A stretch of 64,000 nucleotides of DNA, from contig OX597830.1 in NCBI GenBank assembly GCA_951406725.2, positions 59,272,001 through 59,336,000 of the forward strand. The letters are read 5' to 3'. Position numbers and translations under genes: made by a program. Below are positions 32,101 through 38,100 of this stretch, in pieces. The notes below the pieces were generated by a model. The model was not told where the DNA came from and made no database searches. It worked only from the letters and a program-made list of their open reading frames with translations. Each line of letters begins with the position of its first letter. The first letter of the stretch is position 1. This DNA comes from Octopus vulgaris (lineage: Eukaryota).

Positions 32101-35100
32101 TATTAGGAACATAAATTGTGACAAAGTTTTGGTGGAAGATTTTAATTTAAACCTTATAAAAACAAGACATTTGTACTACAGAGCTAGAGGCGGTTTCAGC
32201 GGGGTTGGTAATGAAAGGGTTAAGGTTCCAACATTTGCAGGTTGAAGGACTACATAGATTCTCTCCTGATAACTATCTTTAGGGACCAAGAGAGAAGCAA
32301 AGGGAACAGAATGTGTCTTACAAACCTGAATGTGTCGATATCCCTTGAGACGCAAAGAGGAAAGTGATGGTTGTCTGAGGAATTGGTTTCTTTCATCCTG
32401 TTCTGGAACCATTTCACATAATTACATAATTCTGAAAGATGAAAACTACCTTCAAGCATAATGTCTTCACATATACACACACACACACACACACACACAC
32501 ACACACACTCAGACACACTCATTCATGCATAGATACACACACAAGCAGACATACTCATTCATGCACATACACACACACACTCATTTGTGCATGTGCATGC
32601 ACATACCTGCACACACACATAAGCTCACACACATGCATAGAACTCATTCATGTATGCACATGCACGCACACACACATACACACACATATACAAAAATGCA
32701 AATTAAACCATTGTTTTACACCATGGAAAGAGACTATATATCAGGTTGAGGAAAAAGCAATGTTTTGAACCATGAAGAATTTGTACTGGATTTTTGCAGA
32801 GTTTTGAATTTTAAAAAAATATTTTTTTGCAACTGTCTCATAATACAGACATAGACTTGCCCAAATGCATAAAAAAAATTAACATTGATATTTTTTCACC
32901 GTGGTTTCAATCATCTGAAATGGAACTGTCAAAGCACAATGATTCAAGCAATTTTGCTATTCAACTTCAAAAAAGGGCATAAAGCAGCTGAAACTGTTTG
33001 CAATATGAAATGTTTGATGAGGAAATGACCAATGAGCAGTCTACTCAAACATGGTTTAGACAATTTCACAGCAGAGACATGAGCCTTGAAGATTGTGAGC
33101 ATAGTGGACACCCATCTGTCATCATGATGGTCAACTAAAGACCATCATTGACAAAGATCCACGTAAAATCACTCGAGAACTGGCAAAAGAACTTCCAGTT
33201 ACCCAGGAAACTGCCTGCAACCATTTGCATGGGATCAGAAAATCAAAAAAGCTTGACAAATGGGTACCACATGATTTGAATGAAAATCAGAAAATGCGCA
33301 GACATGAAATTTGCTCGTCACTTCTTCTCCATAACCAGACCAATCCATTCCTTGAATGTATTGTAACTTGTGATGAAAAGTGGATTCTGTACATTAATAA
33401 AAAAACATTCTTCGCAGTGGTTGGACCAAAATGAAGCACTGAAAACCTTCCCCAAACCCAAGCTCTTCAAAAAGAAGGTCATGGTGACTGTTTGCTAGTG
33501 TACTGCTGGACTTATCCACTTTAACTTCTTAAAACCTAGATAAACCATTACTGCAGAAACATATTACCATGAAATTGCCAAAAATGAATGAAAATCTGCC
33601 ACTCTTCTGTCACAGATGGTTTACAGAAAAGGGCCAATCCTTCTTCAGGACAATGCTCAACCTCATGTTTCACTAATGATGCTCCAGGAGTGGAGGGAAT
33701 TTGGTTACAAAGTTCTTCCTCACCCAGCTTATTCCCCAGACCTTTCTCCTACCAACTACCACTTTTACAAGCACCTTGATGGTTTCCTATGAGAGGAGTT
33801 CAAAAATCAAACTGATGCTGAAAGTCCATTCAAAGGTTCATCAGCTTCGGAACTCCAGATTTTTATGTTACTGGAATAAACAAACTTGTAGCTTGTTGGC
33901 AAAAATATGTTGATTGTAATGGTGCTTACTTTGATGAATAAAATTTCCACATTGTTGAAATATTTTGTGATGAATTTCATGTTTCAAAACATTGCTTACT
34001 TTTTAGTCAGCCTGATATCTCTCAATCTGAATTCATCTCTATTTTTTACTTAAGTCACCAGTCATTATCAAAAAATTAAAAGGGATTCCCTTCACATGAC
34101 TGGGGAAGATCTCAGCAAGCAGTGATAATCATATCGTTACCAGAAAATATCTATGTATACATAAACAGCCTTTTAGATGTGTACAGTTACTTTAATAGAT
34201 AATGTAAACTATATGCAAAAGGCATAAAATATGTTAAATTTGTAAAGTATAGTTAGCTTGATGTGTAAATTATATATATGTCAGTTGGGTGCAATATATA
34301 TTTATATGTTAGTTGTGTCCATTATATGTGCAACTTACCAACATTAGCTGGAGCAACAGGGATGATATATCCTGCAACAATAATGTCAGACATCGGTCTG
34401 TGAACTACTTGATACAGCACATCATTTATAAGAATTTTTATATATCTTCTGTCTGATTCTTTCACTACCAATAATTGGTACAGCTGAAATTGGTAAATAG
34501 AAGAATGAATGCATGAATGAATGAATGAATGCTTGCATGCATGTAAGTATGTGTGTGTGTGTGTGTGTGTGTGTGTGTGTGTGTGTGTGTGTGTATATCT
34601 GAAATCTAAACTAGCAAGACAACCATGATATAATGCAATGAGCTTTGAAGCAAGAACTGAGCAAATGTTTCTCCCAAAATTTAAATCAACAGTCAAACAC
34701 CTAAATATTGTTGCAAAATTACTGAATGGAGAATCCCGAGAGAAGGACCTGATAATTGAATACTGGTGCAGAAAGTTCATGTTCTACAGAACAGCCTTCT
34801 TTATTCTACTCAAAAGAGCAATGAATGTTGAACTTGGTATTTTTCAGAGCCATTTTCCAAGTCAAGAAATGTTTGTCCTTTTCACACTTCAATAGTAACA
34901 TGAAAAAGGATAAGGATGAACGAAGGATAGAAGATTAAAGGGATATCAATAAGATGTTTACCTGAGGAACAATTTGCAGAGATTCCAAGAGTGCAGCTTT
35001 ACTGTCATCATCATCATCATCATCGATTAACGTCTGTTTTCCATGCTGGTATGGGTTGGACGGTTTGACCGAGGACTGGAGAGCCAGTGGCTGCACATGC

Positions 35101-38100
35101 TGCAGTAAAATCTGAAGAGCTTCCTCCAGCAGGTAATTATCAAAGGGATACCAGTGATCAAGGCCACCACTTCCCAATGCTTGGCTGACAAGGAGAGATG
35201 AGTGGGCAACTATTGTGCCAAATATTATAGCTTTAATCACTGAGTTTATGTGAGATGCTTCTCGCTTCAGATATTCATTGATTTGTGTCAAGATGCAGCA
35301 GACAACTGGATGGAATAATTATTAGAAAAATGATATCAATGATATTTTTTACCAAATAGTATTATAAAAAAGCAAAGACAAACAAAAGGAAAACAAGCCA
35401 GGTATTAACAAATTATACCTGACAAGGTGTGATTTGTTTATGAATAGAGATAAGGTCAAAGGTCAGAGACAAAAAAACATTTTGAAATCATTATAATGAG
35501 CTAATACACACACAGGTATGAATGCACATGTGTGTGTGTGTAGTCTATTTCTCTCTCTCTCTTTCTATATATATATATATATATATATATACATATATAT
35601 ATATCGTGGTGAAGTACGACCTTCGATCTGTAGGTCTCACCGAGGAAATGATCAGAGACCGAGACCTTTGGAAATATGCTGTGCGTGAGAAGACCTGGCA
35701 GGACAAGTGAGGCCATAACCCATGGCCTCTACCTAGGACGTAGTCAGTCCACTTATGCATACCTTTCCTTCTTGGGACACAAACTCTACTTGTGAAGACC
35801 TGTTGAGGCAAGTGAAAATCAAAATCAAAATCAAAATCGATCAACATCAATGGAAATTGTAGTTGTGATACCAGTGCAGGTGGCACATAAGAGAACCACC
35901 CAAACATGGCCGTAGCCAGCGCCGCCCTGACTGGCCTCCGTGCCGGTGGTACGTAAAAAACACAATCTGATCGTGGCCATTGCCAGCCTCGCCTGGCCTC
36001 TGTGCCGGTGGCACGTAAAAAGCACCATCCGAGCGTGGCTGTTTGCCAGCCTCGTCTGGCAACTGTGTCAGTGGCACGTAAAAAGCACCCACTACACTCA
36101 TGGGGTGGTTGGCATTAGGAAGGGCATCCAGCTGTAGAAACACTGCCAGACCAGACTGGAGCCTGGTGCAGCCTTCTGGCTTCCCAGACCCCAGTTGAAC
36201 TGTCCAACCCATGCTAGCATGGAAAGCGGACGTTAAACGATGATGATGATGATGATGATGATATATATATATATATATATATATATATATATATATATAT
36301 ATATATATATATATGTATGTATGTATGTATGTATGTATGTATGTATACACGTGTTGATATTTGTGATATATATGAGCAAAAAAAGAATTTTAGAGTCACA
36401 AGGTGCCAGAAAGGAGAGGAGCTACAGTCAATTGAACTGGCTTTGTTATTTAGTTTCAATATAGTGTAGATCGTTTAATCTATTAAATTCTGCCAAAATT
36501 AAAAAAAGAAAGAAAGAAAGGAAGGAGGAAGGGCAGAGGAGAAGTAACAAAGGAAAAGGAGAAGGAATAATAATAATAATAATAATAATAATAATAATAA
36601 AAATAGAGAGAAGAATTTTGAGGTGATGATGACAGTGCTGGTAACAAAGATGGTGCCTCAATAACGTCTCAATGATGAAGATAGATGTTACAAACCTGAG
36701 TCAATGCAGTTTGGTGAAGATGGCAGATGTTGGATGTACAACTGTTGATCCGTTAAACAATCTCCACCAAATCTGAACAGATGTGTCCAGGACAGTTTAA
36801 ATAGATATTTATGCAATGTCAAAGGGAAAATTTGGGATTCTTTCTGAATTATCCAAACTAATGAGGACTTGAGGAGGTTTTCTGCAAATAATAATAAAAA
36901 AATTACAAATCAATAATTATTCTATCAATGTACACACACATATACACACACACACATATTTACATGTGCACACACACACACACACACACACACACACACA
37001 CACACACATATTTACATGCACACATAAACACACCATCTAGGTCATGATCTTATTTTATTTATTTGGAAATATTCTTCTCCGAGTGATTTTCAACTGTTTA
37101 TATAATTTATTTATTATCATCTTTTTGCAGATATAGAATTTGTCCCATCTGACTACTCCTAATGTCTAATGATAGGTTATTGTTGAGTGAAATTTGGCAA
37201 CCATTTATAATAGGTCTAATTATGGTGTTGTTTTTTGCAAAAGTAACCCAAAATAGTGGGTCATCTATTTATCTGTCTGCCTACATGTCTATCAGTCTGT
37301 CTAATGTCTGTCTGTCTGTCTATCTATCTATCTATCTATCTATCTATCTATCTATCTATCTATCTATCTATCTATCTATCTATCTATCTATCTATCTATC
37401 TATCTATCTATCTATCTATCTATCTATCTATCTATCTAATATTTGTCTGTCTATCTATCTACCTAATATCTATCTATCAATCTATCTATCTAATGTTTAT
37501 CTATCTATCTGATATTTGTGTATCTACCTATCTATCTATCTATCTATCTATCTATCTATCTATCTATCTATCTATCTATCTATCTATCTATCTATCTATC
37601 TATCTGTCTATCTATCTATCTATCTATCTATCTATCTATCTATCTATCTATCTATCTATCTATCTATCTATCTGTCTGTCTGTCTGTCTGTCTGTCTGTC
37701 TGTCTGTCTGTCTGTCTGTCTGCCTGCCTGCCTGCCTGCCTGCCTACCTATCAACTTATCTGATATGTCTTTCTTTCTTTCTTTCATTTTTGAAAAGAAA
37801 ATTACAGGCATTCATGGTGCTGTGAATGATGGGAGCAGGTGGCCGGTTCTACTGAAAGCTCTTGGTCGTGAACATTAACTGATTGTGGTTTAGGTGAGAT
37901 GGTCACTGTGGCCTAAGAGAGCATAGTCCACTTTGGAACTGCCTTTGTGATGAAGCAGCATTTTTCAGGGATTTCTTGCTTCCTTTGTTTAGAGGAAGGA
38001 GACAGAAACTGTTCTTTCAATAAACCTTACCCTACTCTTTTTTTATCATTCTCTTTTTTTTTTCTGCTTCCTTGTGTTTAACTGTTATAATTTAAAATGT

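What the first reader, a model, noticed from the sequence alone, without database searches (positions are those of the whole stretch)
35004..36260. The exonised tail has an inverted partner in the adjacent intron: a ready-made A-to-I recoding module
Seen: the + strand copy ending 36166-36260 lies in the intron immediately upstream. It is the reverse complement of the coding insert, roughly 80% identical by eye over ~90 nt and ~1.1 kb away. Known: exon-intron duplexes (editing complementary sequences) guide ADAR recoding, which is extensive in coleoid cephalopods. Inference: codons such as AAA, AAC, CAG, TAC and GAT (D>G) in the insert could be recoded. This would be a transposon-pair route to new recoding sites.
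Basis: inference. Interest (0 to 1): 0.72.

Follow-up and report, generated by a model that had tools for sequence, protein, structure and literature searches.

The report
LINE tail inside octopus dynein exon
A jumping-gene tail sits in frame inside an exon of an octopus-like animal's dynein gene and adds 26 amino acids; its inverted neighbour in the intron is real but is likely a chance by-product of a very common repeat and is predicted to pair with a different copy, so a dedicated RNA-recoding module is unlikely.

Summary
35005-35087 and 36176-36258 are 84% complementary, 1,088 nt apart. The insert is coding: RNA-guessed contigs bridge it to the exon, and an orthologous exon lacks it (net +26 aa). 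Both arms are 3' tails of a reverse-transcriptase LINE. The host is a divergent dynein heavy chain.

The 'module' reading is weak:
- 12 of 31 local tail copies have an inverted copy within 1.2 kb.
- The two arms come from different subfamilies.
- The intronic arm has a 97%/157-nt partner at 38136-38291 that is transcribed earlier and wins the fold (0 versus 83 insert pairs).
- Contigs from two runs read at least 9 of 10 covered adenosines as unedited.

One unplaced difference could be A>G at Tyr 35050 or a plain SNP at 35070; no DNA run was laid, so this is open. Low-level editing cannot be excluded. The route itself is already known (LUSTR1/GPR107 Alu exon, PMC526178). The scan had no note on this place; one note on another octopod genome describes a different LINE-born exon.

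The parts
34962..35305 (-). 344-nt coding exon of a divergent dynein heavy chain gene (phase 1 to phase 0), between the stalk-region exons and the Dynein_C exons
   Evidence: AG/GT flanks and open frame; cover of four RNA-guessed runs ends at 35308 and at 34962-34965, with no depth in the flanking introns; AAA_6, AAA lid, AAA_8, MT and weak Dynein_C hits on other exons, in order
35004..35096 (-). In-frame insert: last ~93 nt of a LINE 3' UTR with (GAT)n tail, sense to the gene; encodes VQPL...LIDDDDDDD where the outgroup has INKDD (net +26 aa)
   Evidence: alignment with P0001; 92-96% matches across the genome; subfamily alignment
35606..36260 (+). 5'-truncated LINE in the upstream intron (end of the RT ORF, ~530-nt 3' UTR, GAT tail), antisense to the gene; its tail 36166-36260 is the proposed editing-complementary arm
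   Evidence: 93-94% matches to 39 scored copies; upstream ORFs of copy L010 hit RVT_1 at E 4e-14 and 1e-13; same ORF end in L011 and L012
36696..36881 (-). 186-nt symmetric (phase 1-1) upstream exon, enclosed by the competing inverted pair
   Evidence: splice flanks and translation
38136..38291 (-). 157-nt LINE tail of the same subfamily as the intronic copy, transcribed earlier; predicted to sequester it
   Evidence: 96.8% over 157 nt; duplex -322.5 kcal/mol, -229.8 for the tail alone; MFE of 34950-38330 pairs 101 of 103 bases of 36160-36262 with it
42562..42631 (+). Second, more distant inverted partner of the insert (closer subfamily), ~7.5 kb and three introns upstream
   Evidence: 87% over 70 nt; duplex -150.4 kcal/mol

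Best explanation
The 3' tail of a LINE retrotransposon lies in frame inside a coding exon of a dynein heavy chain gene and adds 26 residues, and the inverted copy in the upstream intron is likely an independent insertion of another subfamily, predicted to pair with a third copy, so the insert likely gets little or only low-level, unselected A-to-I editing. Shown: insert present here and in a ~6% diverged species, absent in an 85%-identical outgroup exon; frame open; different subfamilies; high local copy density. Inferred: the (GAT)n tail primed or resolved at the pre-existing Asp-Asp codons, which kept the frame while about three codons (INK) were lost. The insert's subfamily happens to be stop-free in that frame, so the event was tolerated, probably in a loop of the AAA6 region (placement from domain order and recalled motifs). 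During transcription 38291-38136 is made first, 36262-36106 pairs with it, and the exon is made 1.1 kb later with its partner already occupied, unless the intron carrying the 38-kb copy has been spliced out.
For: Outgroup without the insert, with DD kept at the site. Contigs bridge the 5' junction in X7, X9 and X20 and the 3' junction in X20 (table 8). 11 of 11 nearest copies are stop-free in the exon frame; 9 of the 10 subfamily-B copies that could be read carry stops. All 4 departures of the insert from its 11 nearest copies (35075, 35070, 35050, 35026) are at sites where the intronic copy keeps the majority base, so there is no drift towards better pairing. Base rate 12 of 31. Insert-to-intron pairs: 0 in the free MFE against 83 when the 38-kb copy is blocked. 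X7 and X9 contigs carry 1 other letter in 259, so at least 9 of 10 adenosines in 35050-35096 read A; X10 has 0 in 35086-35308; X20 has at most 2 differences in 35004-35065. In squid, 91% of robust recoding sites are neural-type, 94% of non-neural recoding sites are below 1%, and repeat editing falls mainly in UTRs and introns (PMC9068888, passages).
Against: Contigs drop minority alleles and depth was only 2.4-10, so editing below about 50% is invisible, and the tissues are unknown. One unplaced difference in X7 and X9 may be A>G at 35050, an A:C mismatch in a UAC context. MFE folding of 3.4 kb ignores splicing order and proteins; with the competitor removed the duplex forms. Octopus is among the strongest hyper-editors and inverted repeats are ADAR's usual substrate (PMC5625713, passages).
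Confidence: 0.7

Rival explanations
1. One reading: the exon-intron duplex forms in a useful share of transcripts, because the intron holding the 38-kb competitor is spliced first. ADAR then recodes the insert at appreciable levels, best at the A:C mismatches 35050 (Tyr>Cys) and 35035 (Gln>Arg).
For: The duplex forms when folded alone or with the competitor blocked; helices of 8-21 bp and three A:C mismatches. X7 and X9 contigs both stop at 35050 with one other letter, and 21 genomic copies carry the 31-mer with G there, which would produce such a break. Precedent: the LUSTR1 Alu exon is edited at 19-58% in brain (PMC526178, section 8).
Against: The same break is explained without editing: 44 copies carry the 31-mer with a change at 35070 (an ordinary G/A SNP, synonymous) and 2 carry the window's own word; 19 of 20 fetched 35070-type copies differ at 35080. 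There is a stronger, earlier partner and no co-evolution. Editing falls with distance and divergence between arms (PMC526178, passages).
Confidence: 0.15
2. The working structure is the other pair (38136-38291 with 36106-36262). It is heavily edited in the introns and may loop out the symmetric 186-nt exon (in-frame skipping or a circular RNA); the coding insert is a bystander.
For: 97% over 157 nt, -322.5 kcal/mol, wins the MFE; the enclosed exon is phase 1-1. That inverted repeats promote back-splicing is recalled, not from a call.
Against: No reads were laid on that region. The X7, X9, X10 and X20 contigs run on for 35-183 letters beyond 35308, which fits normal inclusion of the upstream exon, but those letters were not seen.
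Confidence: 0.1
3. The insert is edited, but its guide is another copy (42562-42631, or transcripts of the family in trans), not the adjacent one.
For: 87% identity and a slightly lower duplex energy (-150.4 against -142.1); family transcripts are abundant in the same runs (summed depth 11,000-54,000 at 35040-35069).
Against: 7.5 kb and three introns away; intermolecular pairing accounts for at most about 1% of Alu editing (PMC526178, passages).
Confidence: 0.05

Closest known systems
LUSTR1/GPR107 AluJo exon and other edited Alu exons (PMC526178; passages and section 8 read)
   Same: A retroelement piece adds a short in-frame stretch (29 aa there, 26 net here); that paper ties editing of such Alu elements to intramolecular inverted Alu pairs, which give recoding sites.
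   Different: There the exon is alternative, made with Alu-supplied splice sites, and editing was measured. Here a LINE tail sits inside an older exon and brings no splice site, the arms are ~90 nt at 80-84%, a stronger competitor exists, and editing is not shown.
Ubiquitous, repeat-directed A-to-I editing in coleoids (PMC9068888; passages read)
   Same: Inverted repeat copies in one pre-mRNA; expected substrate for low or medium editing in all tissues.
   Different: Described mainly for 3' UTRs and introns; here one arm is coding.
RTE-clade LINEs of octopus, e.g. RTE-2_OV (PMC9115989; passages read)
   Same: RT-encoding LINE with a 3' UTR of about 600 nt there and ~530 nt here; the C-terminal GRGRPRKTW motif is recalled as RTE-like.
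   Different: No sequence comparison with RTE-2_OV and no RT tree was made, so identity with that family is untested.
Canonical exon-intron ECS sites such as GRIA2 Q/R (recalled; GRIA2 is only mentioned in PMC5625713)
   Same: An exon would pair with the neighbouring intron.
   Different: Those are conserved, selective, unique-sequence duplexes, usually with the ECS downstream (recalled). This one is repeat-derived, upstream, with no sign of co-evolution.

Membership tests
ECS-guided recoding site | exon and intron can form a duplex in the pre-mRNA | tested here: met
   (in isolation)
ECS-guided recoding site | that duplex is the preferred structure in its native context | tested here: not met
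   0 insert-intron pairs in the MFE of 34950-38330; 83 only with the 38-kb copy blocked; prediction only
ECS-guided recoding site | A>G differences between RNA and matched DNA at coding adenosines | tested here: inconclusive
   contigs only; at least 9 of 10 covered adenosines read A in X7 and X9; one difference unplaced; no DNA run laid
ECS-guided recoding site | conservation or compensatory change of the duplex | tested here: inconclusive
   within the genome, 4 of 4 departures reduce pairing; presence of the intronic copy in other species was not examined
ECS-guided recoding site | editing lost when the ECS is removed | not testable with these tools
   needs a minigene
TE-derived coding insertion | sequence belongs to an interspersed repeat family | tested here: met
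TE-derived coding insertion | included in spliced mRNA, in frame | tested here: met
   both junctions bridged in X20, the 5' junction in X7 and X9; cover ends at the splice sites (runs are RNA by the tool's guess); frame open
TE-derived coding insertion | empty site in an outgroup | tested here: met
   P0001, one sequence seen on 4 contigs
TE-derived coding insertion | translated into protein | not testable with these tools
   needs proteomics or ribosome profiling
Classical exonisation | element supplies a new splice site | tested here: not met
   splice sites at 35305 and 34962 lie in host sequence outside the insert, and the outgroup shares the exon
RTE-clade LINE | RT domain upstream of the same 3' end | tested here: met
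   RVT_1 in L010
RTE-clade LINE | RT groups with the RTE clade in a tree | not tested
   clade assigned from a recalled C-terminal motif only
Dynein heavy chain | AAA1-AAA4, stalk and C-terminal domains in order | tested here: met
   AAA_6 E 2e-8, AAA lid 1e-5, AAA_8 1.5e-6, MT 2.5e-5 (14 ORFs sent, 4 with these hits, plus a weak AAA_7); Dynein_C 0.011 and 1.8e-4, below cut-off
DNHD1 subfamily | orthology with DNHD1 | tested here: inconclusive
   about equally remote from all solved dyneins (E 0.03-0.9); no named homologue; the DNHD1 label is a recalled guess

The most novel reading that the evidence does not exclude
Two unrelated LINE insertions built a splicing-gated recoding switch in an octopus dynein motor: removal of the upstream intron frees the intronic tail from its 97% partner, it pairs with the coding tail, and ADAR turns Tyr (35050) into Cys, the base most family copies carry. 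This would be a datable birth of a cephalopod recoding site.
Probability: 0.12. Interest if true: 0.62.

Novelty: new member of a known kind. Interest (0 to 1): 0.3.

Why it matters
The solid part is a datable, in-frame LINE-tail insertion into a coding exon, kept in at least three organism labels and absent in an outgroup. It is a usable phylogenetic marker and an example of a (GAT)n tail turning into an acidic tract. I found no report of it in searches (listings only; supplements not read). If editing were shown, it would give a natural before/after test of how cephalopod recoding sites arise. The mechanism is already known from primate Alu exons, and present evidence leans against appreciable recoding here.

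Tried and rejected
No run was on record as RNA; four RNA-guessed runs were laid as contigs (4 of 24 listed). No DNA run was laid, so SNP against editing stays open.

I first read the shared contig end at 35050 as a sign of editing. I rejected it as evidence once the one-mismatch search gave 69 variant copies: 21 with the 35050 change, 44 with the 35070 change, 4 others. The two T>C differences in X20 (35237, 35262) lie outside the duplex, are 2 of 13 listed differences and cannot be told from species divergence.

The comparison used the 11 best BLAST copies of each arm. One search shows that A at 35050 also occurs in at least 46 other copies, so it may be inherited from the source element, and 'restorative' editing is uncertain.

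Protein searches for full-length or named homologues found none (only proteins up to 2000 aa were searchable). The representative search gave only P0001. The Atlas gave no hit. PDB and Pfam gave no dynein hit for the insert exon, so its place in the fold is not shown.

'SINE' was rejected for the intronic copy, which carries the end of an RT ORF. The 93-nt insert alone cannot tell a LINE from a SINE that shares this tail.

In one search three flanking exon boundaries were set 1-2 nt off. The printed flanks give 38837-38651, 34483-34339 and a start at 30790, with matching phases.
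Full report
Setting. The window is G000:C17:59272001-59336000 of a 2.8-Gb genome in 227 contigs. That size matches the O. vulgaris assembly in PMC13282606 (passages); 'octopus' is my inference. A minus-strand gene crosses the window. Exons upstream of the window hit AAA_6, Dynein_AAA_lid, AAA_8 and MT in the expected order (4 of 14 ORFs sent, plus a weak AAA_7), and two downstream exons hit Dynein_C below the cut-off. It is a dynein heavy chain, about equally remote from all solved dyneins. DNHD1-like is a recalled guess that I could not test.

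Observation. The arms are real: 35005-35087 against 36176-36258, 84% over 83 nt, 1,088 nt apart; 79.7% over 74 columns without the GAT tail. The + copy lies in the intron between a 186-nt exon (36881-36696) and the 344-nt exon (35305-34962) that carries the insert; both exons have AG/GT flanks and matching phases.

The insert is coding. Four runs guessed to be RNA (4 of 24 listed) were laid as contigs. Cover ends at 35308 in all four (the acceptor plus three letters shared with the upstream exon's end) and at 34962-34965 in the two runs that reach that side (34965 listed for X20; 34962 inferred from bin depths for X7), with zero depth in the flanking introns. Single contigs run from unique exon sequence 44-47 letters into the insert in X7 (organism A), X9 (B) and X20 (E). 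In X20 a second contig bridges the 3' junction with three gap letters, probably one Asp codon fewer. X20 differs at 15 of 256 letters, so the insertion predates that split. P0001, the only hit among 1.84 billion representatives, is the same exon at 85% identity without the insert: INKDD there against 31 residues ending in seven Asp here. The tail therefore went into an existing exon at an Asp-Asp pair and brought no splice site. That the (GAT)n tail used those codons as microhomology is inference.

What the element is. The intronic copy begins with the end of an ORF that, in longer copies, follows an RVT_1 domain. It is a 5'-truncated LINE with a ~530-nt 3' UTR. RTE clade rests on a recalled motif; an RTE with a 3' UTR of about 600 nt is described in octopus (PMC9115989, passages) but was not compared. 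The insert and the intronic copy belong to different subfamilies. The insert's 11 nearest copies are all stop-free in the exon's frame, whereas 9 of the 10 readable copies nearest to the intronic one carry stops (1 of 11 lacked the anchor). At the four sites where the insert leaves the majority of its nearest copies, the intronic copy keeps the majority base, so there is no sign of selection for pairing.

Is the pair special? No. In 184 kb (the window plus 120 kb upstream) there are 31 tail copies, 14 + and 17 -. Twelve of 31 have an opposite copy within 1.2 kb, and a random position has a + copy within 1.2 kb in 18% of draws. The insert has a slightly better but distant partner at 42562-42631 (-150.4 against -142.1 kcal/mol). 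The intronic copy has a far better one at 38136-38291 (96.8% over 157 nt, -322.5). Folded with the upstream 2 kb, 101 of 103 bases of the intronic tail pair with the 38-kb copy and none with the insert; blocking that copy restores 83 pairs. The competitor is also transcribed first. Only early splicing of its intron would free the partner. These are predictions.

Is it edited? Not shown. The X7 and X9 contigs have one other letter in 259, so at least 9 of the 10 adenosines in 35050-35096 read A on the majority path. X10 has none in 35086-35308, and X20 has at most two differences in 35004-35065. Hyper-editing at majority level is therefore not seen, but depth was 2.4-10, contigs hide minor alleles, and tissues are unknown. 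The single difference was not listed; it lies in 35050-35096 or the last 30 letters. Both contigs stop exactly at 35050, which suggests a 31-mer shared with other copies. In G000 that word occurs in 2 other copies unchanged, in 21 with G (mRNA sense) at 35050, and in 44 with a change at 35070. Nearly all fetched copies differ at 35080 (2 of 2, 21 of 21, 19 of 20). A SNP at 35070 is thus at least as good an explanation as editing at 35050. No DNA run was laid, so this stays open.

Known context. Recoding of a retroelement-derived in-frame exon is described for LUSTR1/GPR107 (29 aa, H/R and Q/R sites, 19-58% in brain, under 5% in lung; PMC526178 section 8), and the same paper shows Alu editing falling with distance and divergence between inverted copies (passages). 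In squid, repeat-directed editing is mostly in UTRs and introns, and 91% of robust recoding sites are neural-type (PMC9068888, passages). Octopus is a strong hyper-editor overall (PMC5625713, passages). PMC4384741 was searched for passages and added nothing here. Listings of searches showed no report of this locus; supplements were not read, and published editing tables could hold the sites.

Verdict. Observation confirmed; coding insertion established; recoding module unproven and more likely incidental (0.7 little or low-level editing, 0.15 appreciable recoding through this partner). New member of a known kind; interest 0.3.

Noticed in passing
window 38136-38291 / 36106-36262 around exon 36881-36696: A 97%, 157-nt inverted LINE-tail pair encloses a symmetric 186-nt exon: a candidate for intronic hyper-editing, in-frame skipping or a circular RNA.
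   Followed up: partly
window 9543-11183 (-): 547-codon stop-free frame with a DGSQV-type pentapeptide repeat followed by unique sequence; only a low-complexity CfAFP hit. May be a large exon of a neighbouring gene.
   Followed up: no
window 33000-33940 (+): Decayed mariner-like transposase in the intron downstream of the exon (motifs recognised from memory; the one ORF sent to Pfam was the opposite strand and had no hit).
   Followed up: no
window 34991-35004 and 35090-35109: The two flanks of the insert hold short mutually inverted words (7 nt each, in swapped order); chance or a trace of the insertion, unexplained.
   Followed up: no
L015 and L016 (G000:C17:59336001-59356000): Several tandem, long-ORF copies of another LINE (endonuclease and RT-like frames of 485-680 codons) inside an intron of the same dynein gene.
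   Followed up: no
L024:6400-6678 (-); L018:5745-5954 (-): Other tail copies give the same PSNPYQ...DDDD frame in introns, so this subfamily's tail is naturally open in that frame and other exonic captures may exist in the genome.
   Followed up: no
window 35874-36089: Three ~62-nt direct repeats inside the LINE 3' UTR (D17); their number appears to vary among copies.
   Followed up: no
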